DNA of 32,487 nucleotides from Basidioascus undulatus (GCA_000826855.1 JTLS01000091.1:1-32487), one strand, 5' to 3'. Shown: positions 587 through 30,409, counted from the first letter of the stretch. Notes: generated by a model not told the origin, from the letters alone. Made by a program: numbers and translations.

Positions 587-1005
587 CGCTGGGGCGGGGT
601 GTTGCGGGAGGTCGGGAGGAGGCCTGGAGAAGACGCACCGGTGGGAAATGGTGCACTGTTAGTGCTGCTGGCTCTAAGACGACTCGCCACTTGCTTCATC
701 TTCCGAATAAGCACTGCCTACATTCTGGGAATGTTTTCTAGTCTCTAATGCCTTGAAGACGGTCGGACGAAGCGAGAGGAAGAGAGGAGCGATTCTTGCT
801 TGACTGTTCCGAGCGGGAGCGATAAGCCTGACGCGCACATCGCGTTGCGTCATCGTCTCCAAACTCCTTCCTTTGCTGTTTTGCACGTGCAAACGCGATC
901 GCGTTCAGGCTCCACTCCACGTTCACATTCACCCTTCATCCTTCATCCAAATCTAAATACACCTTTGCCTTCTTGAAAAAGTGTCTATACCCTCAACTAC
1001 GAAGA

Positions 1006-5330: not shown

Positions 5331-6977
5331 GTCTTCAAGAAACGTTGTTCAGGACTAGATGCTGGTCAATCAGAGGCATCACAGTGTGAGAAGAGCCCTA
5401 AATCGCAAGAAGCAGACTGCGTACAAATGGGCCACCCCGTCGTAGCCGATTGAGAGGAGCTTCTCTGGACTATTCTCTGCCACCCTAGAGAAAGTTCCTA
5501 ACAAGGCGATGGAGCGCGGCTTGCGGTGAAAGCAGCCGAGTAGCTCGAGGCGACTGAAGATGGCCGGACGTAGTCGCGGACATAGAACCGACAGTTACGC
5601 TGCAGTACCACCGATTAATCGGACTTCCAGGGTTAGGGTAGACTGCCTACTTACAAAAGGAGCATCGGACTCGGAACCTGCATTGCTTTGGGGCAGAGTG
5701 AGAGGGTAGTCGGCTGTGTTCCAACCGAGCGGATCCCAACAGCGAGCGGCGAGGGCGTCGAGTGTGGGTTGGTAAGTTATGGGGAGAGAATTCTAGGGCT
5801 CCACGCGAGCGAGTTTCCGCTCAGCGTTGATGACTGCGAGCACGACTTCGTCTGACGATGCTCCCGGTGCGAGGGAAGACAGGACGTCCTGACGACGGAC
5901 ACGAGCTCTTTGCTCCTCCCGGTACCCCTCTAAGATCGCCTCATTCTCAGGCCCGAAGTTGAGGGAGGGAGCCCCAGAGGATCTCGCTCGTGCCGCTTCT
6001 TGGTCGCCTCGCGGCGAGCCTCTGCGTGAGGCTCCTCGGAGAAAGTGTGCTCTGGCGGCGCCGTCTGCGCGTTAGGAGAAGGGAACGAGTGCCAAAGTCG
6101 ATCGGGGAAGTCAGCCCCCATCCTGGTACTATGGGGAGGGGTGCACCGTGGTAAGAGCAAGAGTGAGCGGGAAAGGGAACGGGCTCGGGGATCGCAGCGT
6201 CAGGCTCATCAGGAACGGGCGGAAGACTACACCGCGTGCACTGCCGTGTGCTCTGCATAGGTTCACACCGCTTCCCCTCTCACCTGAAATGTAATAAAGC
6301 TTTGCTCGAAAGATCCTAGTGCATTCCCAGTCCATTCGCATACTTGTGCAGACTCTTCCACTCTTGTTCGTCGTCCACTGTGCTGCCCATCTTGCTACTC
6401 CGCGGCACAAACCAGCTCTCTCAATCTTGAATGAACTCTACCGTTTCTGCCCGTTTATTGTACCAGTCGCTTTCTCCCCCTTCGGGAGCACGTTCAACGC
6501 GTTCTCGGCGCACCTCCAGCCCATCGATCGATGTGGTTCTTCCTTACATTTTGTGCATTTATCCGAGAGGGTCAACTTTGGAGAGATAGTCTGAATGCCG
6601 GGAGGAGAACAACAAGAGTGATTGTCATATGTGACCGAATCTGTTAAAAAATGTGCCTTTGCGATCGTCTAGCTTGCGTGCCGTTCGGCGGCGGGCTGGT
6701 TATGTCCTGGCCAGGATGCCGTCTCATGGCAAACTGCTGTACAATACTTGCACCTTGTCAGGTGAATTTGCACTTCATTCTATTTTAAGGGCTAGTTCCA
6801 AATGCTTTTGTAGGCTATAGGTCGCTCTTGGGTAGTTGCAAGCGCGGCCCAAGCGTCTGAACGTGACACGGCGGGCACCTCCGCCTCATTCCTACATTTG
6901 CTGCCAAGTCTCTGACGTCTGACTAACCTTCTTTGATCCTAGGGATAAAAAGTATAACGAAACATTGAGCACACCAA

Positions 6978-7086
6978 GGCGTTGTGGCCGAGTGGTCCAA
7001 GGCGTTGGACTTGAACGTAGTGGTAATATCACTACAAAGAGATCCAATGGGCTATGCCCGCGCAGGTTCAAACCCTGCCGACGTCG
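6978..7086 (+). tRNA. tRNA-Ser(UGA) with a 26-nt intron after position 37
   Basis: Acceptor stem GGCGTTG/CGACGTC with discriminator G; A box TGGCCGAGTGG; anticodon arm TTGGA-CT-TGA-A-[intron CGTAGTGGTAATATCACTACAAAGAG]-A-TCCAA; long variable arm GGGC-TAT-GCCC; T arm GCAGG-TTCAAAC-CCTGC. Confidence 0.93.
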
Positions 7087-7089
7087 CAC

Positions 7090-7095
7090 TTTTTT
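7090..7095 (+). terminator. RNA polymerase III T-run terminator of tRNA-Ser
   Basis: TTTTTT lies 3 nt downstream of the tRNA 3' end. Confidence 0.8.
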
Positions 7096-7481
7096 GCATG
7101 TCAGGCATAGGGGCCTGCGAGGGCCTGGACGGTCCTATATCGTGGTTTGAAATACCTAAAGTATATAAACAACTGTAGTTCAGAAGTGGCCGAAACCGAC
7201 AGCGCCGCTCCCTTCAATATCTATGTGCGAAACCCCACCTCTTCCGCTGATCCTTCCCTTGATGTATCCGACAGCGGTATATCTGCATTTCGCCGTCAAT
7301 CTCAATGTGAATGTGCTCCAGTACCAGTGCCGGTCTTAACTGCGGAGCCAACGGTGTCGCTAAAGGTCGGCTGTGACATGAGCTGCAAGAACGTAGTATA
7401 GTAGCAGTAGAGTGAACTCCAAACTCACCGGTATTGGTTCGACTCCAATCGTTTCTTGGCTGGGTATCACGGTGGCCTGCG

Positions 7482-7587
7482 GAGGCTGGGGCCGAGTGTG
7501 TTAAGGAGTTAGCCTTGTTATCCTTGAATACAATTCAAGGTTATCTGATGGGCTCTGCCCACGTAGGTTCGAACCCTGCTCATGTCG
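7482..7587 (+). pseudogene. tRNA-Ser(UGA) pseudogene
   Basis: Retains a GGCCGAGTG..TTAAGG D-arm remnant, variable arm GGGC-TCT-GCCC, B box GGTTCGAACC and discriminator G. The acceptor stem is poorly paired. The anticodon arm carries an imperfect 9-bp tandem duplication (GTTAGCCTT/GTTATCCTT, 7508-7525) before TGA at 7525-7527, then a short intron-like segment. Confidence 0.75.
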
Positions 7588-7623
7588 GACATTTTGCTCC
7601 CTCCCTCTATCAGAGGAGCAGCA

Positions 7624-9260: not shown

Positions 9261-10607
9261 TCAGAAGACTGCACTCCTCCGCGCATCAGTCTCGGCCCTC
9301 CCGATGTCGCGGTGCAAAGGAGAAGACGACGGACCAACGACATCCTCCCCAGCCGCAGCGGCGGCCTCCTGGCTCTCGTCCCACTCCGGCGCCGTGTCCT
9401 CCTCCATCTTGACCTCGCTCTCGTCGCGCTCCTTTTTGGGACTGCCGTTTACGGGGGTGAATTCGCCCCTGCTCCTCCCCACAAACACATCAGTCGGGTG
9501 CGGGGAGAGCTTTGGGGGGGGGGTAGGTTGTGGGAGGAAGAGAGGAGCAACGACTGACCTCTCCTTCCTCCTCTGCCTGTCCCACTCCTCATCCAACTTC
9601 TTCGCCTCCTACCTCAGCCGCTCGCGCTCCTTCTCCTCCCTCCCCTCCCGCAGCGCCTCCTCCGCGACCTTCCTGCGCAGCTCCACAACCTCCTCGAGCA
9701 GCGCCTTGCGCTGCGCGGCCCACCGCTGGCGCTCCGCGTCCGCGGCCTCCTCCACCGCGCGCCGCTGCATAGCCAGCGCGTCCTCCTGCGCGGGAGTCAG
9801 CACCGCGGGGAGGTAGTACACTGATGGGAGGGCCGGCTTGACGAGCGTTTGGTGCGGGGCTAGCGCGGTCGGCGGGAGGGACGGGGACGGGGAGGAGATG
9901 AAGAAGTGCGAAGAGGAGAGGAGGGCGGTGATGCGCGCTTTGTGCTGTCGTCCCGGACCAGGTGTCAGATGTTGTCCCCGGCCTTCACTGGGGTGCGGAG
10001 GGGGAGGAAGGAAGACGACGACGTACCATCGCCTCTCCCACGCCGACCTCCTCCTCCTTCCTGGCCGCGACCGCCTGATCCCGCTTCGTATGGAGCGCCC
10101 GCTCCCGCGCATCGCTGTACCGATTGCTCTCCGCCCTAAGCTTCGTCTGCAGCCTCGCCTCGAGCTTTTCCCTGCGCTGGGCCTGTCCCCACCACCATTA
10201 GCCAGTCTCCCCTCCCCCCCCTCGCCCCTGCTCCTCCAAAGGGACGACGAAGACGCACCGCCTCCGATTTTGCCTTCTGTGCGCTCTCGTCCTTGAACTT
10301 GTTGAGCGTCCCAACGAGCACGCCAAACAGCCGCTGCCCGCGCTTGCGGTCGCCTTCGCGCGTCGCAGGCCGCGCACGCTTCGCCTCGTGCTGCTGCTGC
10401 TCCTCAGGCGCAGCCGCCTCAGGCGCAGACGGCTCGTCTTCCACCTTGATCGGAGATGGCGAGCGCGTGCGCTTGGTTGACCCCGGTGGGGGAGAGGCGT
10501 CGCTGTGTGGTGCGGGGGGTTCAGTAAGCACGGAGGAAGGGTGGGTGACTGGGGGGGCGGATGAGTTACCGAGGGGATAGGGAACATGCGCGGTCGTCGT
10601 CGGACAT
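9261..10607 (-). CDS. Pinin/SDK/memA-domain protein (splicing/EJC-associated); spliced, with an in-frame TAG at 9609-9611
   Basis: Has the pinin signature DRKRGQRLFGVLVGTLNKFK, a coiled coil AQRREKLEARLQTKL, the SVYYLPAVLTPAQE motif and a charged tail. ATG at 10607, final stop at 9261-9263. See the finding on the internal TAG. Confidence 0.82.
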
Positions 10608-11179
10608 GCTGGGTTGGACGCCGGGGTGTCTTTTGGCGAAAAAGACCGGGAGGAAAGGCGGCGAAGGGGCTATGGTGCAGAGCGTGGTGAGCGTAGCGAG
10701 TCGAAAAGCGCGAGCGGCAAACAGCGCGGGAGAATGGGACGGTTTTGTTTGGCGGATTTGGGCACGCTCGCATGGAAAACTTCTTCTCCTTAGGTCCTCC
10801 GCAACTCATCAGAAGTCTGTAGAAACCAATTTGCATAATAATCACAAGGAGGCGACAATCGGCATGAATGGAAAGCAGCCACTCCTCGAAGGTACTGCGA
10901 AGACTGCGCCGAGCTTGGGAGCGCTGTATCCTTCTCGCCTTCATCATCTACTGACCCTGAACGTCTCATTTTTTACATTCAAAGTACTAACTCTCCAGAA
11001 TCACCTCGATCGGTATCCGTCCCGTCGGAAACTCTTCCTCACCCAATCGAGAGCGGAATACGCGTCCCGACTCGCCTCGAACCTGAACACGCGCCTCCGT
11101 TCGTCTGCCCCCCTCTCGTCTACGGATCTTCCCCTCATGATCACTTCATACGCAGCTATATTGTATGCTCAGCCTCAAA
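10608..11179. promoter_or_regulatory. Putative bidirectional promoter region between divergent pinin and CTK3
   Basis: Head-to-head start codons about 570 bp apart. No specific elements were identified; the call is inferred from gene geometry only. Confidence 0.4.
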
Positions 11180-12173
11180 ATGGACGCCTTCGAGATCCGC
11201 CTCTCCCTCCTCTCGCACCCGCGCAAGCTCAACGCCTCCGTCCAGTCCATCTCCAAGGTCGTCTCGTACGCGATCACCTACGCGCCGCGGTGCGGGGATG
11301 ATCTGTGGACGTGTTTCATTGACGAGTGTCGCAAAGTCCGCAGCCTCCCCTCTCCCATTTCCTTGGCTGACCGGCTGGCGGGCAGGGCGCCCTGAATCAC
11401 CGCATCAACATCCTGCACACCATCGACACGCTCTTGAACAACCCGCCGCTTCCGTCGCCGTATACGGAGCATGTGGCGAGGGATCTGGGGACGATTATCG
11501 GGCTGGTCGTGCCCGAGGGGAGGGAGGGGGTGGTTAATCTGATGAGCGCTATGCAGGTGCGTATGTGCGGATGGCTCCCCCGGAAGATAGCTCATACTCT
11601 TGCTTCGTTTTTAGATCCTTGAGTCTTGGAGGACAAAGCACCTCCTCCCGCCGGGCGTGGTAGAGAACGTCGAAGAGTCCCTGCAAGTCCGGCGAGAATC
11701 GTGCGTCCCTTTCCCCCTCCGTCCACTTTCACACCATCTCACGCTTCCTTTCCTCCACCGCAGACTCCGCTCTGCCCTCCCAAGCAGTGCCGAGCCTTCC
11801 CTTCTCCCTCAAAAAGACATCCTGCGCCGAATTGAAGAAGACCGGGAACGCGTGCGTACCTCCCTCTCCTCCCCACCATCCCCTCCCACCCCATCCCTCA
11901 TCCCCTTCCCCACTCCCTCTTCCTCGCTTCCCGATTGACCCTTATCCCGCCGCACAGCACAAGAGACTCCGCGAACGGCTGTGGGTCATGCCACCCCGCT
12001 CAAGCGACGCGCTGGTGACGCTCAAGCCCGCCGGCGCGCCGGACGAGGACGACGCGCTCGACGTGGAGTTTGAGCAGGCGTGGGAGAATACGAGCGATTG
12101 GAACGAGGATGATGAGGAGGGGGTGAGGGACGATGTCTGGGGGTGGAGGCCGTGGAGTTCGGGGGGTATGTGA
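11180..12173 (+). CDS. CTK3: CTD kinase I (CTDK-I) gamma subunit (5 exons)
   Basis: Spliced product MDAFEIRL...RKLNASVQSISKVVSYA...DDLWTCFIDEC|..LNHRINILHTIDTL...RDLGTIIGLVVPEGREGVVNLMSAMQ|ILESWR...|...DILRRIEEDRER|HKRLRERLW...DVEFEQAWENTSDWNEDD matches the Ctk3 N-terminal (MDxFE, LNAS, NxRINI) and C-terminal (RIEEDRERHKR, EFExAW) motifs. Confidence 0.92.
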
Positions 12174-12811
12174 TTGCTGGACTTAGGATTTCGAGGAGCG
12201 GGAGGGTGTGAGACTCCGTGCGAGTGTGCATCTGGTGCGCTTGGTTTACCGGCGCTCACACTTCAGCCTCGTCTACGGTGTCCGCAGTACGAATAAACCA
12301 TAAATGAGTGAAATCTCGAACGCCGGAGCCAGCCAATTAATCACGGCGGCGTGAGCGACGCGGCAAAGAAAGGGAACCAGCTCCTTTATGTTCCGTTTGG
12401 CGTCCCGCTTTCAACTGCTGCCATCACAATACTTTGCCTCGTCTTCTCCATCTTCCAAAAAAAATCACAACGGAAAAGAGCCTTAACAACAGCATTAACT
12501 CGCAGACCGCCCTCCTATGCTCCAACGGCACTCTCTCGCAGTTTCACGGAAGTTCCTCGGACAGGGCGCGTTCACGGCGCGTTCTCCTCTGAAACGACCC
12601 GGTTTCCCGCCTCGTCCTCATCCTGCCTTTGACCGACTCCGTCTCGGTCAAGCATACTCCGCACCCGCCCAGAATCAGGAGCACAGTGATATTTCCGGGT
12701 TCCCACTCTCGCCAACCTCTTTCCCGCCCTCCGCCGCTGCACCGTACGCTCGCGCCTTCCCTCCCCTGGCCTTCCCGCTGAACCAGAAGTCCCATCTGGA
12801 TCCGCAGCCGC

Positions 12812-15800
12812 ATGTCTGACGAGGACTACGATGCCGCCTTTGGCGCGGCACCCTTCTCCGATGGCGCCCTCGCCGAGATAGACGCCATCGAGCTCGCGTC
12901 CTCGCAGCCCCACCCGCAGCAGCCCTCGGCGGACGGCGAGCTCGCGCCGGAGATGGAAGAGGCGTATGAACTGCTGCGGGAGACCTTTGGGCTGCAGGAG
13001 TTCAGGCTGAAGCAGAGGGAGGTTGTGGAGCGTGAGTCGTTCGGTTGAGAGATCAGGCCGTGTGGGAGGGGAGGGCGAAGGATGGTCGGGCTGAACTGGG
13101 AGGGGGACAGGCTTGGTCGTAAAGAACGAGTCGGCGGTCGCTATATTCCCTACTGGAGGAGGGAAGTCGTTGCTGTACCAGGTGTGCCGCATCTCCTTCT
13201 CCTCTTCTCGGCCGCCCTCATGTCCGTGCTGAGCCCCCTCTGCAGCTGCCCGCGCTCTGCTTCCCCCACCTCACGCTGGTCGTGTCGCCTCTTGTGCGGC
13301 AACTCTGTCGAACTTGTTGTTTGAGTCATCGCTGAAACGGCGTGGGAGCTTCCAGATCGCATTGATGAAAGACCAAATCGACGTGCTGCGCAAGAAGGGC
13401 ATCGCGGCCGCCTCGCTCGACTCGAGCCTCTCCGCGGCGGAGGCGTCGGACGTCCAGCGGTCTATCAAGTCTGGGAAGCTCAAGATCCTCTATGTCGCTG
13501 TAGGCTTCTTTTGCTCATGGTCTCTCATCGCGTCGGAAGCATGCTGAGCGGCTGTCACCTCTTCCTACAGCCAGAGCGACTGAACAACGAGCGCTTCGTG
13601 GGGTGAGGTAAATATCGTATTTGCGTACATTGCGGGGACTGATCTTGAGGTACTTGATCAGAATGATGGCCGACGTCCGCGTCTCCCTACTCGCGGTTGA
13701 CGAGTCACACTGGTACGTTCGGGACGCTCCCCTACATCATGAAGTGCCCGCAGACCTGACCTCGTCTTTCCAGTGTCTCCGAGTGGGGACACTCTTTCCG
13801 CCCAGGTTAGTCGTTGGCGGGTGCTTTGCAGTTCTCAAAGAGTACTGCTGACACGGGCCTTTTGCAGACTACCTGAAGGTTGCCCGCTTCGCTGAGGAGT
13901 GTGGTGCGCATTTTCTCTTCTCACCGTTTAGATAGCAGCGATTGTTACTGAATATTGTTGGACTTCCCATATCTGCAGAGGCGGAGCATATTCTGTGCTT
14001 GACCGCAACCGCTACCACCAAGGTCGCCGACGATATCGCGGCGCGCTTCGGCATGTGCGTGATGTCTTCCCATCCAACAGCCATCGCTCTTCGTATCCCA
14101 ATCACTCCCGGATTATCCAGTCCGCCCGAAGGAATTTTCCGCACGCCCTCATATCGCCCCAAGTCCGCGCACATCCCTCCCCCTACTCCAAGAATCCATA
14201 CTGACCTCGCCTTCCAGCCTCTCGCTCGCTGTCCAATCCGTCCCGAACGACCCGCACGGGGCGACCCGCAAGAAGCTCCTCGTCGACTCTTTCAAACGGA
14301 TTCCTGGCGCGTCGATCGTCTACGTTACGACGCAGCTGGACGCGATGACCGTCGCGAGGCACTTGAGCGATGCGGGCTTGCATGCGAGACGTGAGTGGGG
14401 CGGCGGATGAATCAGAATGCAGGGGATGTGCTGATGCTTTGGTCGCGGCGGTCAGCGTATCATGCGGGGCTGCCGCACGGTGAGAATCACGGAAATACCT
14501 TTGGGACAACCGAAAGCACGCCCTGACGTGCTGTGCGACAGACGAACGAAAATCTACGCAGGACTGGTTCATGGATCCCAGCACTGTAAGCAACTCTATC
14601 TCTCTTCCTCTCTCTCGAGACTTATTCCTGAACCTTTCTCGCAAAGGAAAACCCGAGTCCGTCGCTTCGCTTCGGATCTTCAGAGCGTCGACACTCGCTG
14701 ACGTTCCCCATGATCAGTCGTTGCTGCTACGATAGCCTTCGGCATGGTATATTCCAGAGCTCCTTTCTCGCACAGCGCAGTGGTTGATGTGTGCTCGGAC
14801 ACAGGGTATCGACAAGAACAACATCCGGAACATCATCCACTACGTCCGTTCAGCGCTCAATTGTACCTCGCGCCGGAAAAGCAACTGACCACAAGATCAC
14901 AGAACCTGCCGAAATCGATTGAAGGCTACTCGCAGGAGATTGGCCGCGCCGGCCGCGACCGCTTGCCATCCCGTTGTCTTCTGTTGCTCTCCGGATCAGA
15001 CACCATCACGCTCGAGGTGCGTCCCTCCGCAGCTTCTACCTGTCGCTTGTCTGATTGCTTTTCTCGTCTTCTCTCGCCAGAGCTTCGCACGCGGTGACAC
15101 GCCGTCGAAGGAGGCTGTGGTCTCGTGGCTGCGCGAGGTCTGCTCAACCGAGAACCAGTCCAAGAAGGTCGGCGAGGCGATGCACTTCTCGCACTACGAC
15201 CAGAGCACGAAGTACGACATCAAGGTCAGCCTCTCGCTCCCTTCAAACGACACTAATTTGAGGGACTGAAAGTGCGATGCGTTACAGACCGGCACCATCA
15301 ACATGCTCTTCGCTCACCTCGAGCTCACGTACGACTTGTTGCGGGCCATCACACCCTGTGAGTGCACCTTTATCAGATGTCGGACGGACTGGATTACTGA
15401 TCGTTTTATTCGATGTTCAGTCTACGAGACGTACAGCCTCCGCGAGCTGATGGCCGGCGCGGTCCGGTCCGACAGCTCAACCGTCGCAAAGGCGCTCGTC
15501 TCCTGCTTCCAGCCCAAAGCAGTGCGCTCTTCTTCGCCCTTAGAAATGCGAAGCACCTTGCTGATTATTTATTTGTACTCTTCTGCAGCTATGGACGCAT
15601 GTCGACGTCACGCAGGCCGCGGGCATTGCGAATGTCGACCGCACCATGGCGGCTGCTAAGCTGCAGGAGTGGGAGAGCAAGGTGAGACGCTCTCGCCATC
15701 AACAGTGCAGTCTGCGGTAGGTTCTGACATGCTGCGTTTTTTCCAGGGATGGATCACGCTCAAGGCCGAGCGCGTCCGTCACCGCTACGCTCTGCGGGCG

Positions 15801-16683
15801 AAGCTCCCGACGGACGTTACCAAGATGGCCGAAGAGCTGTACCAGACGCTCGAGGATAAGGAGCAGGACGAAGTGGAGCGCATGCACAAGGTCCGATAAC
15901 TCGCAGTCGCCCCTTTAAGTGCGCTGTTCATCATGCTGGCGAGGCGCCACAGGTCATCCAACTGGCGACTTCCTCAACATGCCTCGCGGCCGGCTTGTCA
16001 GAGCACTTCGGGGACGTCGGCCAGCCAGCTTGCGGTACTTCTAGGCAGCGCTCGTTCAATTATACTTGATTGCTGACAGTATCGATTGCCGAAAGGCCAA
16101 TGTTGCGTTTGTCGCACCGGCGGTGTTGGTGCCACTATCGACCTGCAGACCCACCCGGACGTCGACAAGGCGCGGTGGCAGGCACTGCTAGCGGCGGTTC
16201 CCGACAGGGACGAGCCGCGTCTCCTGTGCCGGGTTGCTTTCGGGATTTCCAGGTGCGCATTCACGAATGATCCATGCTCTATGCGCTAGGCATTCTGGTT
16301 ATTGTTGGTTCCATGTCCAGCCCGCGAATCACGAAGGCTAGGTACTCCAAGAGCGATGTACGCCGCATATCTGAAGCATGGCGAATCTTGGAGCCCGGAC
16401 ACTGATCTACATTTTGCAGGTCTTCGGGAGCATGGTCGACGTACGCTCATCTAAGCAATTCACAGACAAATTCCGTCCAGCGTTGCTGACGTTAGCCTCC
16501 TCAAAGCACGACTTTGGCACGCTCCTCAAAGCGGCCCACGCCGCGTGCGTCGCGGGCAACTGGCAACCGGCGGCTGCGCCCGTGCCGGCGACGAAGAAGC
16601 GGACGGCGAGCAGTGCGCCCGCAGGTGCGAAAGCGCCTGCGGCCAAGAAGGCGAGCACCAGTGCGAGGGGAGGGACGAAGTGA
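12812..16683 (+). CDS. RecQ-family ATP-dependent DNA helicase (about 27 exons)
   Basis: Helicase motifs are recovered across introns: FGLQEFRLKQ, PTGGGKSLLYQ, VVSPL|IALMKDQ, YVA|PERL, AVDESH|CVSEWGHSFRP|DY, LTATAT, YHAGL, ATIAFGM|GIDK, GYSQEIGRAGRD. Zn-binding cysteines appear as TCLAAGLSEHFGD...ACG|QCCVC. I counted 26 in-phase GT-AG introns. Stop at 16681-16683. Confidence 0.95.
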
Positions 16684-17288
16684 ATGCTGTCTGCAGGAGG
16701 GTAGAAGACATTGGATGGCGGCCCAAGGCGTTGGCATTGCCGCGTCGTTAGATTCTACATCATTTGTGACTTGACTGCATGTTCAACTTCCCATGATCTT
16801 CTGTTGCATGAGTATGTCTATCTTCCGTAGACCTTGTTGAGCAGTTGCATTTGCCGCGATGCTCGCCTTGCCTAGGGCCGACGCGCACTACGGCTCATGC
16901 GCAGCGAGTCGGTGTTACCTATTTGCTGGCTGCCAACTGTACTCCGCATTGCCACGTGCTGAATGCGGGCCCGGAGTTTACTCTGCATCTTATACGACTG
17001 AAGGAGAGACAGAAGTGCAATGGCGGAAGTTCCCAGCTGACGGTTTGACCACTGTCACACATCTTGCAAACTATTATCATGTTGTTCAAACCTGCTCAGA
17101 TTATGAGTTCAATATTTTTTTGTTCATGTTGACTTCTGGTGCGGCTTTTGCGAACTAGCGGTCTGCAACGCCTGCTTGCGAGGTCAGAGGAGCGGGGACA
17201 GGGAGCGCCCGCTTGCCGGTCTTGAAATGTTGGCCTGTCAGGATGAGGCGGTTATATGATCAGAGTGGGGGATTGTTAGAGAGGCAGG

Positions 17289-18084: not shown

Positions 18085-19669
18085 CCCGTGGCGTGGTATC
18101 AGTGTTATGACTTCCAAGATCCTATAAAAAACTTTCCATACAAGCTTTATGTAGAGTCATTCAGTGCAGACCATTCTTTTCATTGGGGTTGTTTACATCT
18201 CTAGGGAAAGTATGCTAGGTGATCCAAAAGCTTTTTCAAACAATCAAACACTTTGATCACCGACAAGGATCACGACTGCCAGGCACCTGCACGCACGGGG
18301 CAGATCGAGAGCAATGGGACGGCAATGCTAAGCAACTAAAGAAGACTACATGCACTACAAGTTTTCTAAAGGTAGCCCTCCTCCTCTTGGCTGCCGAAAC
18401 TCCATTAAAGGCCTCGATAGTGCCACGCCAGCTGCTTTCAGACACAGCTACAGGGCTGTATGTTGTACGGAGACAGCAAGCCTTCCCAAGGGTAGTCTCA
18501 TCTACGTTCCGCTTCACACAGTTGCCTTCTCTGGAGAAAATTAGTGCAAGGGTGAAAGGGGACCCTTTTTTGTAGCATTGTGAGCATAGCATGTGTCGAC
18601 TTTCTCTACTGCACACTGGAATGACCCCCCAGTCTCCGGCCTTGCAGTATGGCGGCCTTCGAGGCACCTACCTCCTTCTTTCCTTTGGTATGCCCTTGGA
18701 TGCCGAGATTATAATTTCTTGCTTACAGGGGTTGGCTGGCCTGTTTGGACCGTTGTGCCTGCTTTTAAAAACCTGGCTCAGCCGTTCTCTCTGCCCTACC
18801 AATTGGCATATGAAGAGGTGCCACTGAGCGGCCTGAAAGATCATTTCAGTAATTTCTTTCTTTCTATGAGACTCTCTTTGATCCGGTCAAGATATATTTA
18901 GGCCACTCACTTGGCAGTTTGCTTCGAAGTTCGATACGCTTCTCATTTGTCTACGAAATTTTGTAACAAGGTTGGAATTGTATAACGGTTAGTACATTGG
19001 ATTCTGATTCCAAGGATCTGCGGTCACTTCCCAGTCCGACTTTACTTTTGCTTTTGGGCCGCAGGGCTTTCCAAACCCCGAGCTTCGTGTACATCGGAGC
19101 ATGTCACGCCGACTAGGCTTGGTACACGCAAGTTGTGCTACCTTGCCATGTTCTTCTCCAACCCATCTTCGTTTCAAACAATTGGCATTCATTACCCTAG
19201 CCACCGTGTAGATGATGTGGGGCGAGCCGCACCGCCGGTGGCTCTGGCTCTTACACAATGTGCCAAACATAGGAGCTGCATTCTTTCTCAAGATTCCATG
19301 GGTCAGGCCACTATGTCAACATCATAACCTCTCCGCAACTGCGATTTGATTTCCGTTCCAGCGTTAGCGCGCATTGCTGCTTATGGGTCTCTTCCGGCTA
19401 AGTATCTTAACTTCCCCGGTGTAAAGCTCTCGCTGTAGCCTGCTCAGGTTGAGAAGTTCTGAAAGGTTACGAAACTTTCGAAGCACAGTTCAGTTTAAAT
19501 CCCAGTGCGGCCCAATTGCACCGCCACCGTTGCAGGCCACACCGTGACGTGTTGTCCGTTGTCCGCTCCCCGAGTCTCGTCGCAGAACCACCGCCCTCTT
19601 GTGTGCCACCAATCCGTTTTCTGCCCGAGCATCTCCCTCTACCCCCAAACTCGTAGAGCATTTTCAAAT

Positions 19670-20542: not shown

Positions 20543-23500
20543 TCACCAGCACCCCTCGTCGTGATGCCCACCCCCAGCGAGCGCCCTGCGACCCTGCAAA
20601 ACCTCAACCAGCCCCCTGAGCGACTCCCAGGCGTTCCCCGTACCCCGTCTGTTCTTCCTCTGCGGACCAGGAGGAACAATTCCTAGTCAGCTAAGAGCGT
20701 CTTCGTACTTTGAAAACAATACAAACAGGCTCACGTCCTCCCTTGCGCGCACTTCCGCAATGCTCGAGAAGCGTACCTCCTCGCCCTCAACGCCCGCGAC
20801 AGCGGCCCCCTTCTCTTCATCCTCCTTCTCGTTCCAAATGCCAACGGGGATGAGGTCCCGGCTTAAACCGCGCTTCGCAGCGCGGCGGTGCTCCTCGAGG
20901 AAGCGCACTGCGCGCACGGCCAGCCGGGCAGCACGCGTACGGTCGAGCGGGGAGGGGACGAGGCCTTGGAGCGTGTGGCCGAGGATCGCAGACCGGGCGT
21001 CAAAGAGGTCCCCGCCGCATTCGTTTAGGAGAGCAGTAACGTGCTCGGTGGTATAGACGGAAGAGGCGGCTTCGTTTCTGCGGGTGTAGCTCCTGCCTCA
21101 GCTCCGCGATCCTGCGAGAATTGATAGTCTGAGAGCGTACCGGATGAGCAGCCGACCCTCGTTCTTTCCCTTCGCGTCAAGCTCAAAACGCTTGCGCAGG
21201 AAAGCGCAGTCCTTCTCGAGCAGGTCGAGCGAGATGCCGACTTCTGGGGTGTAGACGATCGAGGCGGACGACTGTGGACATCGAATTAATGCAGTTTTGA
21301 CAGAAATCAGTCACTTGTAGAGGTCGATCGGGAGTTGGTTAGAAGAGAACCGTACAGCCAAAGCGCCGACAGTTGCGAGATAGCCGGAACGGCCGCCTTG
21401 CGTTTCGACAACGAACGCACGGTTGCTGTGAAAAATAGATTCGCAGTCAATGCCTCGCCTTTCGCCGGTGATGAAGAAGGATTATCTCACTTGGAAGCGC
21501 TTGCGCTCTGGCGGATCACGTCGCAATACTCTACCAGGGTATTCAGACTACGGGGGGTTGAAAAGATGTTGAGCAGCAACGCTATAGTGGAAGCGGGCCT
21601 GCTTGCCTACCTCGTGTCGCTGCCGATCGAAGCACTCGTTCCGGGTACCTACATGCGCAAAAGCCTGTTCAGCGTACTGCCCACATCAACCCAGGCAATA
21701 GGACTCACGTTATTGCTGATCGTAGCCGGGGCGATGACGAGCGGGCCTCTGAACCAAGGCCAGTCCTTCCTTCCCTTAACTATCTGCTTACCAGCCTCCC
21801 ACGCCTCCCACCCGCCCACAATGACCAGTCCCTGCACGCCCCACTCCTGCAGCTTCATCGCGACCTCGCCCAGCCCGACCTCGCTCGGCAGCGTCCGGTC
21901 CGTCCCGATGTCGCACCCTCCACGCGAGGACCAAAAATCGACCCGCAGCCATGAGAGCGGGCTGACGCGGTCGGCGAGTAGGCCGGGAATTCCAGAGTGG
22001 ATCGCGAGCGGGGTGTGCCCGCGCGCCAGGGCGAACCGCGCGAAGGAGCGGACGAAGGCGTTCATACCGCCCGCGGGAGCACCGACGCTTTATTGTGGGG
22101 AGATGAGTCAGTACGACACGGCCCAAAGCCTTCGGCAGCGAGAAGATTCAAACGAACTGAACGACTGCGATGCGCATTCTCTGGAAGAGGCAGCAAGGTC
22201 AGCGAGAGCGACACGCAGTCCGTGAAAGCAAGCAAGCGCGCACCTCTGCCTCAGGCAGCCTCCAGTCCTCCCCGAAGTGGCTGAGATACTCGAGCGTCTC
22301 AAGCGCTTCGTCGAACTCGGGGCTGCGTAGCCTCCGAATGGCAGCAAAGTCCTTCGCGGCGTTCGCTTTCTCGATCTGGCTGATCTGTTCGGAATTACGG
22401 TTGAGCTCAGTCTGCTGACTAGATTGTCGATGTAAGATACGGACAATATTGACTGCCTTGGCCAGCGGGACCTTCGTAACCTCCCCCGCCTTCCAGGCAA
22501 TCATGTACGGGGGTTGCGGATCGGTCGCCTCGAGCGAGTCGAGCGAAGCTTGGACAGCGTGTACGCCTTGCAGGGTGGCCTGTCGCCCACCAGCCGAGCC
22601 AGGTAAGTACCATTCTTCTCGCTCCTTTTCTGTCAAGGCGTACTCGGCTAACGTACCAACATGCGGTCAAACGCGCACGGCTTGCCCCCGCGCTGGACGT
22701 GGCCAAGCTGGGTGATGCGCGTATTCAGTCCGAGCCGGTTGGTGAGTAGCTCAGCGACCTCCGCAGACTTTCTAATCATCGTAAGAGCCAGGTCAGTCGG
22801 TGAGGATGAATATAAATGGGAACCGCGCCGCCGTACATCGGTTTCAGATGCGCATCCCGGGCGCCTTCGGCGACGAGGACGATCGTGCGGCGCTTTCCGA
22901 TCTCGCGCAGCTATGGAAAAATAGCGAAACTGTCAAGTTAAGTTCCGCCCTTCATGAATGCTTGGAAGCGAAATCAGATCGCACCTGCTTCAGTTTCCCG
23001 CACATGAGCTCCTTCCAGTCCGCGGCAGCCGGCGGCCTTTCGGGGATGAACAGGTAGTCTGCTCCGGCGCTGAAAGTCGGAAAGCCAGTTAGTGAGATTG
23101 CAGAGAGAGAATGAACTGCGGTGATTGGCTTACGCTATACCAGCTTGCAATGCCAGCCAGCCCGAGTGCAGTCCCATAACCTCGACGACGAAAACGCGCT
23201 GGTGCGAGCCGGCCGTTGTGGAGAGGGCGTCAACGGCCTCACTGTGAACCAAAATATGGGCCTTTGCCCTAAGCAAAAAAGGAAGACAAGTACAGCTGAA
23301 GGGGATTTGACGAACCAAATGCGAAGCACTGCCGTCAGAGCGCCGATTGTCTGGTCGGTCAAAGCCGTGTCGTTGTCTGGGCTTCCAGCAGCGGACTCAG
23401 TCAGCAAATGTTTAGGTTTGAATTATAGAGACATCCCACAGATCGATGCGACCACTCCAGTCACAGTCAGCTTTCTGGGCTTCTCGCCAAGCTCCTCTGC

Positions 23501-24248
23501 TTTTTGCGGGTCAGTCCCGAGGCTTCGACCAAAGCTCCGCTTGCAACTTACTGACCAGCCCCTCCCATTCTTTCTCAAGAACCCAGGCGCCCGTCATGGT
23601 CCCGTTACCGCCCACAACGACGAGCACGTCAATCTCGTACGCGAGCAGTGTCCGCGCAGCGGTGAGCCTGCCCTCGCGTGTGCGGAACCCCGCGGAGCGC
23701 GTCGTTCCCAGGAGGGTGCCTCCCTAGATGTACTTCATTTTGTAAGATTACACGGTACCGTAGCGTGATCGAACAGAAGACGCACTTGGTCGATCCACCT
23801 GTTCACATCGTCCCATCCCGCCCTCAGGAAGTATTTGCCCGTCATCTCGGGCGCGTCGCCTCCCTCCTTGAGCTCATCGGTCTCCCCATAGCTCAGCGGA
23901 CACCCAAGCTCCTCAGCCACCTGCTTCCGCGAGCTCTTCGAGTTCTCCGTCCCCTCCTTCGCCTTTTGCTCCGCGCCGCGCAGCAGGCCATCGAAACCGT
24001 CGCGGACGAGGTACACCTCGCAGCCTCTGCGAGAGAGCTCTCAGCGGCTATTAATCCAGGTAAGATGCTACGATTCCCGACCGCATACCGATGCAGAGCA
24101 TACTTGGTGACCGCGCGAACGCAGGCGTTCATGCCCTGCGGTGGAAATCGTCCTCAGTTCCGGCCTTGTGGTTCCTGTATTTCACACTCACTTGAGCATC
24201 ACTCCCGGACGTGAGCACTGCAAAACGAGGGCGCTTTGCCGATTTCAT
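20543..24248 (-). CDS. Eukaryotic-type (tandem two-half) 6-phosphofructokinase homolog with a degenerate catalytic site; about 19 introns
   Basis: N-half: [87 protein letters not shown]-half: [44 protein letters not shown]. Last exon [24 protein letters not shown]...CW*. The junctions I checked restore one continuous frame. Confidence 0.92.
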
Positions 24249-24995: not shown

Positions 24996-26787
24996 TTATT
25001 CCAACCCCCGCTGGGGTTGATGCCTCGGGTACGCCGGGGGAAGCTCGATCGGCACGAGGCTGTGCGGGTCGGAATCGACGTGCTGGATGACGGGGGCGCC
25101 CTCGTCGCTCCTCGCGGAGAGGTGTTTCCCGCTAGCGCTGGTCGCGCCACCGTCAGACATCGAGATGGGGCGGAAGCCCGTGGCGCAGCTCATGCCGGGG
25201 CTATGGGCGTAGTGCTGAGGGTCGCCCGCTCTCGTGCGCGAGGGCGCGTATGCACCGCGCGGAAGGCCCTCGGATAACGCTGAGAACGAGAAGGCCGTCG
25301 GGCTGCTCGGCGGCCGGAGGGGCGTGGGCTCGTACGGCTCGTTGACCATGTCGCTGTCCAGGTCGACAGGTGACCGAGCCAGCCCGGCCCGCGGGCTCGG
25401 CGCCGGCGCTGGCGGAGGAGGAAGAAGAGCGCAGCGGCGATGGCCAGAAGGCCGACGACGACACCGACGACAATGCCGGCGATGGCACCGCCGGAGAGAC
25501 CCGACGATCCGGGGGAGAAGATGGCGATCAGAACATCCGTGGGTGCTATCTTGATCGCCGAAAAGGAAGGAGAAGTCTCACTTCTTCGCTCTCGCAGCGG
25601 CAGCAGCTGCTGCAGCAGGATGTCCTGGACGACGCAGCCTGGCTCCGTCTCACTGTCATCGCCGGGCTCTGCGACGGTCAAGAGGACAGTTGAGCCGCCA
25701 GTCTGCCACCGTCCGCGTCGAGAACGACAAGCGAATATTGCCAGCCGGCAGGGACAGGTATGAGCACGTCGAAGACACTTGGGCCCGGTGTCGATTTCCT
25801 CCTGCGTGATATTGCGGCCGAACGCCAGGTGCGGGTTGCCCTCGAACGGGGAGCACCAGGAACTGGAACGGCGCGGTCGCGTTGTCGACGTCGGTGTAGG
25901 GGCCTGGATACTTGGTTAACCTCATTGCGTCTACAAGAAGGAACAAAAGTAGCCCACTGGGAGGGATGCTGGCCTCCGCGTCGAATGCGATCTCTGCTCC
26001 ACGATCATCGGGATGTTGACTGAGCTAAATATGAGCATGCGAAGGGATCACGGGGCAGCGGGGACACGCACGAAGGGTAGAACAGGCGTGACTGCGAGCT
26101 GGGGCTCGGCGATCTGTGTGCCGTTCTGGTGGTACGTGCCGGAATCTCGAAGGTGAAGTCCTGCAACGACCAGCGCCCAACCCCACACGCCGGTCAGTCT
26201 CGAGCCCGGCTTGACACATGGCCTACGCAAAGAGTAACGCACGATCGGGCGCTCGTTGCTGGTGCAGTCAGTGTTGAAGGATTGGGCGATTTCCTTGGGT
26301 TCTGAACAGTACAAATGATTGGGTTATTCCTTTCCCTGGACGCTGGCCGAAAAAGCGAGGAGACTCACCGGAGACGACGCCATTGTCCCACCCTGTCGTA
26401 TCGCGCACTGCTACAACGGCCCCTCCTGGGAGTCGTTTTATGGTCCAGAGAACCTCCGATGAGTTACCCTAAAGGATATTCTCAACGTCAGATCCTCTGC
26501 ATACCTCAGCAGCCGGCCTGCAAAGCGTCCGCATTTCGCACCTCTGGATTGACCACAATCGGAGCTGTAACGACGGGAATATGTGAGCCCCTACTTATTT
26601 GGAGACCCTATAAGAGCTCACCATTCGAAGAGTTCGGATCGAAGACCACGACGAACTGGTACGGCGGCTCACCACCTATCGCCCGGAGCCGCGACTGCCC
26701 GCACGTTTGCAGCCGGTCGACCTCCAGCTGGAGCGCGGACGCCACAGCGAGGAGCGAGGTAAGAAGAAGAGCGCGAAGGAGTAGCAT
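24996..26787 (-). pseudogene. Type I single-pass membrane protein gene (signal peptide, TM helix, PPxY tail); several apparent frameshifts
   Basis: Signal peptide MLLLRALLLTSLLAVASA, GGEPPYQF motif, D..G.TGGST.L.TV motif, TM LSGGAIAGIVVGVVVGLLAIAAALFFLL followed by RQRRRR, and tail VIQHVDS...ELPPAY. The TM and the PPAY tail are in different frames with no intervening intron, and about three more frame changes occur at about 25700-25855. Confidence 0.7.
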
Positions 26788-27917
26788 GTCGGGGTCGGCT
26801 CTGGGATGGCCAGATATGTCCACAAGGCAAGGCGGGATCCGAAAGCCGCAGCGTTAAAGTTGAGAGCAACGGTCGGCCGTTTGCCCTACGTGGTGGAGAC
26901 CTGGACGCTCGAGATAGACGAGGACTCTTTGAAAGAGGAAGTGCCACTGGAAGTGGGTGGGAAGGTAAGATGAAGAGAGAGGGATGGGGCGTAGTGGACG
27001 GCATGGCGCCACAGAGATGCGAGGAGGATGCAGCACGGCGTTGCAGTTTGCGCACGCAGGGTGTGGAAGCGGTGCCAGCATGCTTTGCCCTGATCGACTC
27101 AGTAATCGCTCGATCTTCGGATACATGACGTGATGGAAAGCGGGCCGTATAGATTTAGCAGAGGTCGGAGACGGTCCAGGACGGCGGCAGAACCTAGTTA
27201 CTCTGGCACTGGCCGTGCGGAGTAAACAAGGCTTAAGGACCTGATGCCGGAGGGAGGTACAGGCGGGATCATGATAGAGGAACCGGTATTCCGGGGTCCA
27301 ACAGCTTGTCGACAGCGCAAAAACTTAACATGCAAGAATCTAGCCCTCCGCAAGACAATCAGGACCATCTCACCCAATTATCGCCAGGTCGTCCGCCGCC
27401 TACTCAGCCGACTCAGCCGAGCGTGACCAGTCGCGATCTGCAATCGGCGCCCGCTAATAGCCTACACCGTGGCATCCTACAGAAGTGCTTATGCAATAAT
27501 AGACCTGAGTTAAAGACAATATTGCAAGCTAAGTGAGCGTGAAGGGCCGCAGCCCTCAAGGACGGCGGCAAGGGATAGGGAGTCTAAAGGAGCTCCAGAG
27601 CCTTCGGCTGTGCAGTGCAGTGCCAACGAGTCGGCTGAAGCTGCGGAGGCACTCTAAGGTTTTTTGTACTAGCCCACTGAGTGGACGTCAATTCAGTCTT
27701 CACATTGCCTGAACGTCAGCGAAAGGACTCCAAATCCTCAACAAGCTGCTATATGAAGCAAGGGAAGCGACTGCAGCACCGCGATGTCTATACTCCGGGG
27801 TAGCTCCTAGCTGTGTCGCACCAGCAACGGGAACACTTTGGGATAGTGCGAAGCACAGGCACGGTCTGAGCAGGTGGGATGTCGAACGTCGGAGGGCGAG
27901 GGGAGGGAGGGCGAGGG

Positions 27918-27955: not shown

Positions 27956-30409
27956 GGCCAGCCTTACTTCTTATTTCTCCTTCTTCGACAGCTTCATGTC
28001 CGTTCTGGTATATCGCCCTCTTCTGGACTATTTGAGGCCCATGAGTATTACAGTGTGGCAGGTAACGGGCGCCTACTAGCCAAATTCCGAACCCACTCGC
28101 TCAGGCTGTGTAGGCCAGGGAATAGTGGCTGTCGGGTCCTCCCGTAGGTTGCTTGATAGCCCTTGGCGGGTGTCGTACGGGTGGTCCAGGCCCTCTTGCT
28201 CGCTCAAAAGACACACACACACACACGATGAGCTAACAGCGGGATAGGACCGTGGTGCCGATAGGCCCATGAGTTTTTCAGAGCAAATGTATACGGCTTT
28301 TGCTTTCAATCCAAAAGAGTGTGCACAGCGTACTTCGAAAATAGGACTGCGCTGTCCAGTCTCCTTATGTCAGTATTAGTATGGGTGAGTCGCCCAAGTG
28401 TATCGCTTGAGCAATTGCATTTGCGACGGTGGGCATAGCGATGTCTGCCTCCAGCGTTCACTTGGCCTCGCCACGAAGCTGAGCTTGTCAGATTGCTGTG
28501 TAAAGCTAATTTCAGGACCCAATTCTGCAATCCAGACAGTTACAGACTGAAACGCTGCAGGAATGGCGGCAGAGTGGCGGCGTCCTTCGCTGTCGGTCGC
28601 TGCCATGGCTCGGGTGTACACAGAAGTTGTGCAAGTATTTATGGCGAAGTGAAAATAGCTTTCTTTGTTATCGAGAACAAATGCATGGTCGTGGGACCAT
28701 GGACAACGACGCAGTGAGGTGACCACTGCATGCCACTATCCGCAGCAGGTCCTTGTACATCTTTTGGCTCTCTCCAATCTGTGCAGCCCAGCTCGGGGGT
28801 TTAGCCTCTATCGTGAATAACAAACTCCAGGTACAAAAATTCAGCTAATAGAAAACTCCGACTCTGTCAAATATGCGAACTTTCGGATGTGCAGTACTTG
28901 CAGTTTGTGAAATGCAGGATGCGGACAGGGTGGACAAGCTCGCGAAGTGCGGGGCTTTGGGCGCAGCCATGGGAACTTGGTGCGGTTAACATCGGTTTGG
29001 TACAGATTAAAGGAAGGTAAGTGTAGGACGATGGAAGCTGGAAGGACATGGAAGAATGCAAGACAATACCAGTACTCCCACTCCCAGACGGTTGCCTCAA
29101 ACTTGCCCATACCTGCTTAAGTGTGCCTGCAGGGCAACCGCTCTGCCTGATGCCAAATCTGAACGGCACAAGAAATATTTTCGTGAAGTTAATTTAGAAA
29201 AGTGGGCGGCGCGTCAGGGAGAATACAAAAGAAAAACCTATATGAGCTTGATGGCGCAGGGGAAGCGCGGTGGGCTCATAACCCACAGGTCTCTGGATCG
29301 AAACCAGATCAAGCTACTTTTTGATTGATATCCGTGTGAACGGAAGAGTTTCTGGTCCGAGTCAGTTGAGATGCGAACGAGCGATGGCAGACCGTCAGAC
29401 GTAGACTGCAGCGTATTAGGACTGTGAGTGCCGCACTGATGGAGAGTACCTCTCGGAGCGCAGAACGAGCTTTTTGGCCGGGGAGCATGGTGCCAGAAGA
29501 GCGAAGTCCATGGGGTAAAAATCCTTGAGAATGGGAAGCCGGCGAAGCACGACAAAGTACGGAAAGACGGCCACTCGCGATTGGACATCCACTTGCGATT
29601 ACATGCTTTCGTGAATGAGTGGAACTTTCAAGCTGCGTTATTGAGGCTATCACAAGGCGTGGCCCATGTCAACCCCATAAGACAGCAAGCACAGAAACAC
29701 GAGCTCTTTCCTGCCAATCTCCCACATCTCCCATAACCTTCTGCGCTTTGTGACAGGGAAGTGCTGCTTGCCTTCCAGCAGGATGCGCAAACCGCCCTCT
29801 GATCTCTCGGAAACGCTTCACTCTCACCGAAGAAATCATGTCACGAGAGAGCTCTCTTTTTCCGGACTCTTTCCATACACGGAGTCGTCAAAGCAAAGCG
29901 GACACGGTCATTCTTCAAGTTTGTCGTCTACCTCAGCCCGACTGAATGATTTGCGTTGTCTTGCTTTAACTCAGCGGGATAAAACGCATCCCAACAGATA
30001 TCTTCTTTGCTTCTTTGCTTTATAAACGTAAACAACCGTGTGCAGAACACCTGGACCGCAACAGCTGAGCTGCGTTGAAATTTTGGACATGACCCACAGC
30101 CTCAGCTACAAGCTATGCAAGGTACATGCATGAATCTTGATTGAAATTTTCGCAAGCTAGCGAAACAGTATTCCAACATTTTCATCAATCTACTAGACAA
30201 ATTCGTTGTCGAACGCTAGACTTGGGTGTATGCGTTATCTATTATCGGGAACAGCACACGTGACGTCTTTCGAGATTGAATCGCAGCTTTCAGCCGTTCG
30301 CTCGCCCCCTTTCCTTTCACTCATTTCGCTCAACACCCTCACGCAACTCTCACACCGCAACCACCACCATCACCACCACCATCACCGTCTCCCTGCGCTC
30401 CCCGCCCCG

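What the first reader, a model, noticed from the sequence alone, without database searches (positions are those of the whole stretch)
20543..24248. Intact phosphofructokinase gene that appears to have lost its catalytic base: candidate pseudoenzyme or regulatory subunit
Seen: splicing the intron at 23377-23439 joins T+AC, giving VVASIYND where PFKs have SIDND. Retaining the intron hits a TAA, and the nearby alternative AG is out of frame. The MGR motif reads MGL (about 23169-23177), TSGGD reads TSGSD, and GGDGS reads GGNGT. Known: the first Asp of T/SIDND is the general base (E. coli D127 equivalent) and MGR binds fructose-6-phosphate. The ORF, the ~19 splice junctions and the regulatory C-half motifs (TISNN, ETQGG, RNE, GHTLQG) appear preserved. 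Inference: this is a catalytically dead or very weak PFK kept for a structural, allosteric or metabolite-sensing role, for example in a heteromer with an active paralog.
Basis: partly seen in the sequence, partly recalled or inferred. Interest (0 to 1): 0.7.

Follow-up and report, generated by a model that had tools for sequence, protein, structure and literature searches.

The report
Expressed, catalytically dead fungal phosphofructokinase copy
A fungus related to Wallemia keeps, beside its normal glycolytic phosphofructokinase, an old, intact, correctly spliced second copy that has lost the residues that transfer phosphate but kept those that bind sugar phosphates, so it is probably a non-catalytic regulator or partner subunit.

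Summary
Confirmed. The minus-strand gene has 20 exons and encodes 816 aa with no stop. A spliced contig in run X3 skips introns 6-19 as modelled, and its lengths fit only the Tyr-making junction 23440/23376. General-base Asp127→Tyr, Asp103→Asn, Arg171→Leu and Gly11→Ser (E. coli numbering) are real; 278 of 279 homologs keep Asp127. The genome has one other PFK, fully canonical and 55% identical. Neutral decay is rejected: 16% of near-invariant sites changed against 51% of variable ones, and 0 of 1000 neutral simulations left the gene intact. The partner-facing arginines and the C-half effector site are kept. All four losses fall on positions that the regulatory C-half also lost (post hoc p≈0.035). 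Best reading: a long-maintained pseudo-PFK that co-assembles with and retunes the active paralog (about 0.5); a stand-alone non-catalytic role is the main rival. Binding and activity are untested. No ortholog was found; a mite protein independently shows the same Asp→Tyr. Ten literature searches gave no natural dead PFK-1 paralog, and this scan had not noted one.

The parts
20543..24248 (-). PFK-1-like gene, 20 exons, 816 aa, predicted catalytically dead
   Evidence: gene model; Pfam PF00365 in three exons; spliced contigs
24192..24248 (-). exon 1; TSGSD motif, Gly11-equivalent is Ser (codon 24203-24201)
24089..24135 (-). exon 2
   Evidence: depth fit
23786..24026 (-). exon 3 (fungal insert region)
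   Evidence: piece of X3 record 6
23552..23723 (-). exon 4; Arg72-equivalent kept; GGNGT, Asp103-equivalent is Asn (23606-23604)
   Evidence: X3 piece with 0 other letters
23440..23496 (-). exon 5 (acceptor 23497); Gly124-equivalent is Ala; ends with the T of the Tyr codon
23377..23439 (-). intron 5 (63 nt, GTGGGA..CAG, phase 1), splits the codon of the general-base position; absent from the paralog
23316..23376 (-). exon 6; completes Tyr192 (Asp127-equivalent); Asp129-equivalent kept
   Evidence: side=61
23134..23241 (-). exon 7; partner-facing Arg227 (Arg162-equivalent, 23198-23196) kept; MGL, Arg171-equivalent is Leu (23171-23169)
22657..23069 (-). exons 8-10; Glu222-, partner-facing Arg243- (22719-22717), His249- and Arg252-equivalents all kept
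22158..22579 (-). exons 11-13; end of N-half and linker
21709..22087 (-). exon 14; start of regulatory C-half, Arg503 and TISNN kept
21141..21648 (-). exons 15-18; Arg599 and ETQGG (21421-21392) kept
20543..21077 (-). exons 19-20; RNE, Arg692, GHTLQG kept; stop codon

Best explanation
An old duplicate of the fungal ATP-dependent phosphofructokinase (PFK-1) that has become a pseudoenzyme and acts as a non-catalytic subunit of the active paralog on contig C2723.

Shown: intact, spliced, under purifying selection; lacks the general base, the Mg-binding Asp, Arg171 and Gly11; keeps the sugar-phosphate-binding set of both halves.

Inferred from PFK chemistry: it cannot transfer phosphate at a useful rate (about 0.9 likely).

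Inferred, untested: it pairs with the paralog, donates its two partner-facing arginines to the paralog's active site and its C-half to the shared effector site, so a mixed oligomer has fewer working sites and altered allosteric tuning. It would then be a conditional damper or retuner of glycolytic entry rather than an obligate subunit. Its N-half site may now be a ligand-sensing site, as happened to the C-half in the ancestor of eukaryotic PFK.
For: Asp127 is the general base (PMC12203962, passage). 278 of 279 homologs keep it. Yeast Pfk2 D348S (proton acceptor) and D301T (Mg-ATP site) are catalytically dead yet form a complex in which intact Pfk1 supplies activity (PMC12980061, passages); by motif these are the two Asp residues lost here. 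R201 (= bacterial R162) and R292 bind the F6P phosphate in the adjoining subunit's active site (PMC11345425, passages); both equivalents are kept. All 17 C-half positions matching the active-site set are as in the paralog except Tyr→Trp at the 103 position. Four of 14 core residues are lost, all among the 7 that the C-half lost (hypergeometric p=0.035, post hoc, residue list recalled). Selection: 36/225 near-invariant versus 69/136 variable columns changed, p=3.5e-12; 0/1000 neutral runs without a stop or splice hit; 10/36 changes need two or more steps versus 1.3 expected. Exactly two PFK loci in the genome; a 6PF2K family match exists to supply fructose-2,6-bisphosphate.
Against: No binding or activity data. 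The paralog is 72-74% identical to Wallemia-type PFKs and no degenerate partner appeared among the Wallemia-like hits, so the paralog probably works alone; Wallemia gene number was not tested. The protein has changed broadly, not only at the active site: 26/134 near-invariant N-half and 10/91 C-half columns, on a branch 8 times the paralog's (0.95 vs 0.118), which may have altered interfaces. Loss is not significantly greater in the N-half (p=0.10). Keeping the arginines is equally expected for a homo-oligomer that still binds F6P. No ortholog was found, so present-day constraint cannot be measured.
Confidence: 0.5

Rival explanations
1. Dead enzyme kept for a stand-alone non-catalytic job (sugar-phosphate sensor, RNA binding, scaffold), as a homo-oligomer or with other partners, not with the active PFK.
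For: Yeast Pfk2 has catalysis-independent RNA-binding and cell-cycle roles that dead mutants rescue (PMC12980061, passages). Broad divergence outside the active site suits a new partner. The sugar-phosphate residues of both halves are kept.
Against: No new domain or extension; length and layout match the paralog over 826 aligned columns. The partner-facing residues are intact.
Confidence: 0.28
2. Still an enzyme, very slow or with another substrate or phosphate donor.
For: Arg72, Ser125, Asp129, Glu222, His249, Arg252 and Gly104 equivalents are kept. Recalled, not found in the library: an E. coli Asp127Tyr mutant was reported with low activity and retained allostery.
Against: Both catalytic Asp residues are gone and no acid replaces them in the motif. 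The PPi signatures (GGDD; Lys in PKTIDXD; PMC12203962 section 9) are absent: the window has Gly104 and Ala124.
Confidence: 0.1
3. A transcribed relic now decaying: function lost recently, not yet hit by a stop or frameshift.
For: Very long branch; changes at near-invariant sites are only slightly more conservative than random (p=0.046); no orthologs found.
Against: A neutral phase long enough to change 17% of codons gave on average 5.7 stops and 6.2 splice-site hits, and 0 of 1000 runs had neither (indels not modelled, which would add more). Multi-step changes are in excess. GC3 is 0.76. A very recent loss of function cannot be excluded.
Confidence: 0.1
4. Artefact of assembly or of the splice model.
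For: X1 and X2 may be the source of the window; the key joint itself was not displayed.
Against: Three of the four substitutions lie inside exons; the spliced X3 contig lists no other letters, and its lengths fit the Tyr junction.
Confidence: 0.02

Closest known systems
Fungal ATP-dependent 6-phosphofructokinase (PFK-1, PF00365, EC 2.7.1.11); nearest: own paralog G000:C2723 and Wallemia-type PFKs (P0293-P0296)
   Same: Tandem two-half layout, 51-55% identity, 7 intron positions shared exactly with the paralog
   Different: Gly11, Asp103, Asp127 and Arg171 equivalents replaced; 38 of 228 near-invariant columns changed
S. cerevisiae Pfk1/Pfk2 hetero-oligomer with engineered dead Pfk2 (D348S, D301T)
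   Same: Same two catalytic Asp positions lost; dead subunit beside an intact paralog (PMC12980061, passages)
   Different: Engineered, whereas this is natural; wild-type yeast subunits both carry the catalytic residues and need each other for in vitro activity; no complex shown here
Regulatory C-half of eukaryotic PFK-1
   Same: PFK domain that lost catalysis and kept the sugar-phosphate site as an effector site (PMC12203962 section 7); the four positions lost here are also changed there
   Different: Here both halves of a whole separate gene are dead; Asp129, Met169 and Arg252 equivalents are still kept in the N-half
Plant PFP alpha subunit
   Same: Regulatory paralogous subunit beside a catalytic beta subunit (PMC3653104, passages)
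   Different: PPi-dependent plant enzyme of another branch; not compared by sequence here
Komagataella (Pichia) pastoris PFK gamma subunit
   Same: Accessory subunit of a fungal PFK (PMC12203962 section 7)
   Different: Derived from a methyltransferase, not from PFK
Trypanosome prozyme and dead deoxyhypusine synthase paralogs
   Same: Catalytically dead paralog that regulates its active copy (PMC5201418, PMC3663545; search listings and abstract starts only)
   Different: Unrelated enzyme families; activation is proven there, untested here
Dinothrombium tinctorium 6-phosphofructokinase-like protein RWS06465.1 (P0183)
   Same: Tyr at the general-base position and Ser at Gly11; Asp103 and Arg171 also lost
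   Different: Mite, about 32% identical to the paralog, so independent; far more eroded (Arg243, Met169, Gly170 lost); single unverified gene model

Membership tests
PFK superfamily, eukaryotic tandem type | PF00365 domains in two homologous halves | tested here: met
Active ATP-dependent PFK-1 | General-base Asp (Asp127) | tested here: not met
   Tyr192; role
Active ATP-dependent PFK-1 | Mg-ATP Asp of GGDG (Asp103) | tested here: not met
   Asn155; 273 of 280 aligned proteins have Asp; role
Active ATP-dependent PFK-1 | MGR Arg (Arg171) and TSGG Gly (Gly11) | tested here: not met
   Leu236, Ser16
Active ATP-dependent PFK-1 | F6P-binding set including partner-facing Arg162 and Arg243 | tested here: met
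   Arg227, Met234, Gly235, Glu291, Arg319, His325, Arg328; partner role; rest of list recalled
Active ATP-dependent PFK-1 | C-half fructose-bisphosphate effector site | tested here: met
   Arg503, Thr561-Asn565, Arg599, Gln606-Gly608, Glu666, Arg692, His698, Gln701 as in the paralog; sequence only
Active ATP-dependent PFK-1 | F6P kinase activity | not testable with these tools
   needs an assay
PPi-dependent PFK | GGDD motif and Lys in PKTIDXD | tested here: not met
   Gly104 and Ala124 equivalents; signatures
Pseudoenzyme (dead paralog under selection) | Catalytic motifs lost, gene intact and transcribed, purifying selection | tested here: met
Regulatory dead subunit (prozyme / PFP-alpha type) | Physical complex with, and effect on, the active paralog | not testable with these tools
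   the spliced proteins could not be given to the folding tools; no job sent
Pseudogene | Disabling lesions or neutral divergence | tested here: not met
   no stop, 19 canonical introns; neutral simulation 0/1000

The most novel reading that the evidence does not exclude
The first natural, dedicated pseudo-PFK-1 subunit: a whole eukaryotic PFK whose catalytic half has repeated the ancient conversion of the C-half into a sugar-phosphate effector site, giving a two-site metabolite sensor that tunes the active enzyme in trans. The mite protein with the same Asp→Tyr and Gly→Ser changes would make this a recurring, unrecognised class hidden under '6-phosphofructokinase' annotations.
Probability: 0.3. 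Interest if true: 0.8.

Novelty: new variant of a known kind. Interest (0 to 1): 0.62.

Why it matters
PFK-1 is the main control point of glycolysis and its catalytic residues are nearly invariant. A natural full-length dead copy kept under selection points to regulation by subunit mixing, or isolates the non-catalytic roles of PFK (RNA binding, scaffolding) that in yeast can be studied only with engineered mutants. It is also a natural replay of how the regulatory half of eukaryotic PFK arose, and it is directly testable in yeast. Limits: one lineage, no ortholog, no functional data.

Tried and rejected
Ortholog searches, none found one: exon 14 against 5.8 billion proteins (1155 hits, best 120 listed, best 59%); exon 4 (257 candidates, none passed); exon 14 against 50%-cluster representatives (606 hits, 150 listed), where the fragments scoring slightly higher against this protein than against the paralog lacked its signature changes; metagenome contigs (20 loci, best 57%). 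The tools call such blanks weak evidence.

Pairwise codon-model dN/dS: the fit ran to its bound, so the values are not usable; 116 of 283 four-fold sites are identical against 95 at saturation.

Age of the duplication: without Wallemia the two copies were sisters (0.992; that tree's rooting on P0066 was wrong, since the record is labelled bird but groups with fungi). With Wallemia the window copy fell outside paralog+Wallemia (89.6/90), but the AU test rejected no placement (p=0.87, 0.057, 0.21; 5000 replicates, flagged as too few). Long-branch attraction is possible, so this is unresolved.

No RNA holder was listed; X3 was found to be spliced only on laying. Contig depth in X3 was 415.6 for the paralog piece and 31.5-33.5 here; the tool states that contig depth cannot rank genes, so it is not used.

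An in-frame alternative splice (donor 23432, acceptor 23382) that would bring in a shifted Asp does not fit the contig; contigs drop rare forms, so a minor isoform is not excluded.

An early guess that the organism was Tilletia was dropped: the paralog is closest to Wallemia-type proteins.

No structure or complex prediction was run: single exons are not whole domains. The atlas search on the mite protein returned only PFK clusters. A recalled human tetramer-interface residue could not be confirmed and is not used.

Literature: ten searches showed no natural dead PFK-1 paralog. Most hits were seen as listings only; the library lacks most subscription papers; no supplements were read. Earlier scan notes: none on PFK.

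Full report
Observation. Reading the minus strand gives a phosphofructokinase gene from ATG 24248 to a stop ending at 20543, with 20 exons and 19 GT..AG introns of 55-84 nt (intron 4 as revised below) and no internal stop. With the intron 4 acceptor corrected to 23497 the protein is 816 aa. In E. coli numbering (assigned by motif; the numbers other than 127 and 162 are recalled) they are Gly11→Ser16, Asp103→Asn155, Asp127→Tyr192 and Arg171→Leu236, with Ser105→Thr and Gly124→Ala beside them. Each of the four needs one base change. Only the Tyr codon is split by an intron.

The junction. No run was on record as RNA, but run X3 holds contigs that skip the introns. Fourteen displayed joints match introns 6-19, one further joint belongs to the paralog, and five were not displayed. 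The DNA contigs of X1 and X2 have no such joints and no differences from the window, though they may be its source. Record 6 of X3 leaves 118 letters for exons 5 and 6, and the joint table gives exon 6 as 61 letters. Of seven canonical solutions only one fits, and it reads SIYND. Binned depths match this model and not intron retention, the 23500 acceptor, or an in-frame alternative with a shifted Asp. A G at the junction would give 62 letters or a listed mismatch; neither is seen. The gene is therefore transcribed and spliced to the Tyr form, deduced from lengths in one contig of one sample.

A second PFK. Family and protein searches of the genome hit two loci only, the window and contig C2723. 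The C2723 gene (about 12898-9522, 14 exons, 824 aa) has every canonical motif and is 55% identical. Seven intron positions are shared exactly and two are shifted by 1 and 2 nt, which points to a gene duplication rather than a retrocopy. The paralog's nearest relatives are Wallemia PFKs and two unnamed proteins that group with them (82-86% over one exon; 72-74% overall). Window copy, paralog and Wallemia-type proteins form a clade at 99/98 support; the window branch is 0.95 substitutions per site against 0.118 for the paralog. Whether the duplication predates the split from Wallemia is unresolved. The organism is a basidiomycete of the Wallemia-related lineage but not Wallemia itself.

How unusual. 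Against 120 mostly fungal homologs the protein departs at 38 of 228 near-invariant columns; the median is 1, the paralog has 3 and the next highest sequence 19. Of 400 proteins in hand, 280 (window copy included) align across the N-half: 278 have Asp127 and two have Tyr, the window copy and a mite protein; Asp129 and Glu222 are kept in all 280. Arg171 is Arg in 264, Gly in 14 (those listed belong to one Nakaseomyces glabratus cluster), Glu in the mite and Leu here. The set was gathered by similarity and includes near-duplicates.

Dead or alive as an enzyme. Asp127 is the general base that deprotonates F6P (PMC12203962, passage). In yeast Pfk2, D348S removes the proton acceptor and D301T affects the Mg-ATP site; the authors call both catalytically dead and ascribe the remaining activity to intact Pfk1 in the complex (PMC12980061, passages). 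The window protein lacks both equivalents. It has neither PPi signature (PMC12203962 section 9). I put loss of useful kinase activity at about 0.9; this is inference from established chemistry, not an assay.

Kept or decaying. Synonymous sites are near saturation between the paralogs, so dN/dS is unusable. Three other tests point to long maintenance. Where the paralog carries the consensus residue, the window copy has changed 36 of 225 near-invariant columns, 25 of 86, 33 of 97 and 69 of 136 in successively more variable classes (extremes p=3.5e-12). Neutral substitution run to 16.7% changed codons left no copy of 1000 free of stops and splice hits. Ten of the 36 changes need two or more steps, against 1.3 expected and a maximum of 8 in 3000 neutral runs: a few sites have been free for a long time while most stayed fixed. 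Against a tidy story, the changes are only slightly more conservative than random (p=0.046), and the N-half is not significantly more eroded than the C-half (p=0.10). A very recent loss of function cannot be excluded without orthologs.

Pattern of loss. Of 14 core active-site residues (list recalled), four are lost. Three of them (11, 103, 127) sit at the phosphoryl-transfer centre; Arg171's equivalent R210 is described as F6P-binding. The rest of the sugar-phosphate set is intact, including the two arginines that in human PFKL (R201, R292) bind F6P in the adjoining subunit's active site (PMC11345425, passages). The C-half effector residues match the paralog, and the genome has 6PF2K matches on two contigs. 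Aligning the halves shows that all four lost positions are among the seven that differ in the regulatory C-half (p=0.035, post hoc), the domain known to have lost catalysis and become a sugar effector site (PMC12203962 section 7).

Mechanism. The best reading (0.5) is a non-catalytic subunit that mixes with the active paralog, completes its sites in trans and changes its output or regulation. Shown: intact gene, spliced transcript, lost catalytic residues, kept binding residues, purifying selection, an active paralog. Inferred: no catalysis, folding, ligand binding, heteromer, any effect on flux. Since the paralog resembles Wallemia enzymes for which no such partner turned up, the role is more likely modulatory than obligate. 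Rivals: a stand-alone non-catalytic role such as the RNA binding shown for dead yeast Pfk2 (0.28), slow or altered catalysis (0.10), recent decay (0.10), artefact (0.02).

Comparison and novelty. It belongs to the PFK superfamily by architecture, fails the test for an active PFK-1 at four residues, and meets the sequence definition of a pseudoenzyme. Dead or accessory partners are known for plant PFP (PMC3653104, passages), the K. pastoris gamma subunit and trypanosome enzymes (listings only). Ten searches showed no natural dead full-length ATP-dependent PFK-1 paralog. Nine papers hold both 'phosphofructokinase' and 'pseudoenzyme'; I read passages of one (PMC12869072, irrelevant) and saw the rest as listings. 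The library lacks most subscription papers and no supplements were read. The scan's earlier notes hold no PFK case. No ortholog was found. The mite protein RWS06465.1 shows the same Tyr and Ser independently, from one unverified gene model.

Verdict. Real, expressed and unusual: a new variant of a known kind. Interest 0.62, limited by the single lineage and the lack of functional evidence.

Noticed in passing
P0183 (RWS06465.1, Dinothrombium tinctorium): Full-length mite PFK-like protein with Tyr at the general base, Ser at Gly11, Arg at Asp103 and an eroded MGR motif: an independent candidate pseudo-PFK.
   Followed up: partly
P0127 cluster (Nakaseomyces glabratus CAGL0I05698g): Diverged beta-type PFK (41% to the paralog) with Arg171→Gly and Arg72→Lys but both catalytic Asp kept; cluster of 36 members; no paper in the library names the gene.
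   Followed up: partly
window 24136-24191 and 23724-23785 vs L011: Introns 1 and 3 sit 1 and 2 nt away from the matching introns of the paralog (possible intron sliding); 10 of the 19 introns have no exact or near-exact match in the paralog, one of them inside the general-base codon.
   Followed up: partly
L011 (G000:C2723:9522-12898): The active paralog has Ala for an otherwise invariant Gly before HVQRGG (120 of 120 homologs have Gly).
   Followed up: no
P0295, P0296 (Wallemia): Wallemia PFK records are 1008-1274 aa and carry PF05686 besides PF00365: a fusion or merged gene models.
   Followed up: no
P0066: Record named as a bird PFK groups with Kwoniella/Tremellales proteins, probably contamination.
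   Followed up: no
window 7387-7457, 18969-19043, 29245-29317: tRNA-Trp, tRNA-Gln and tRNA-Met genes; further tRNA-like stretches near 6900-7150 and 7500-7600 were not called and may contain introns.
   Followed up: no
window 10139-10669 (-), 11141-12170 (+), 832-1336 (+): Neighbouring genes with Pinin/SDK, CTK3 plus CTK3_C, and NTF2_SigF-like Pfam matches.
   Followed up: no
window about 12800-16700 (+): Exons that look by eye like a RecQ-family helicase; the three pieces scanned gave no Pfam match.
   Followed up: no
window about 25000-26850 (-): Gene with a signal-peptide-like start and one transmembrane segment followed by a basic stretch, upstream of the PFK gene; no convincing family.
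   Followed up: no
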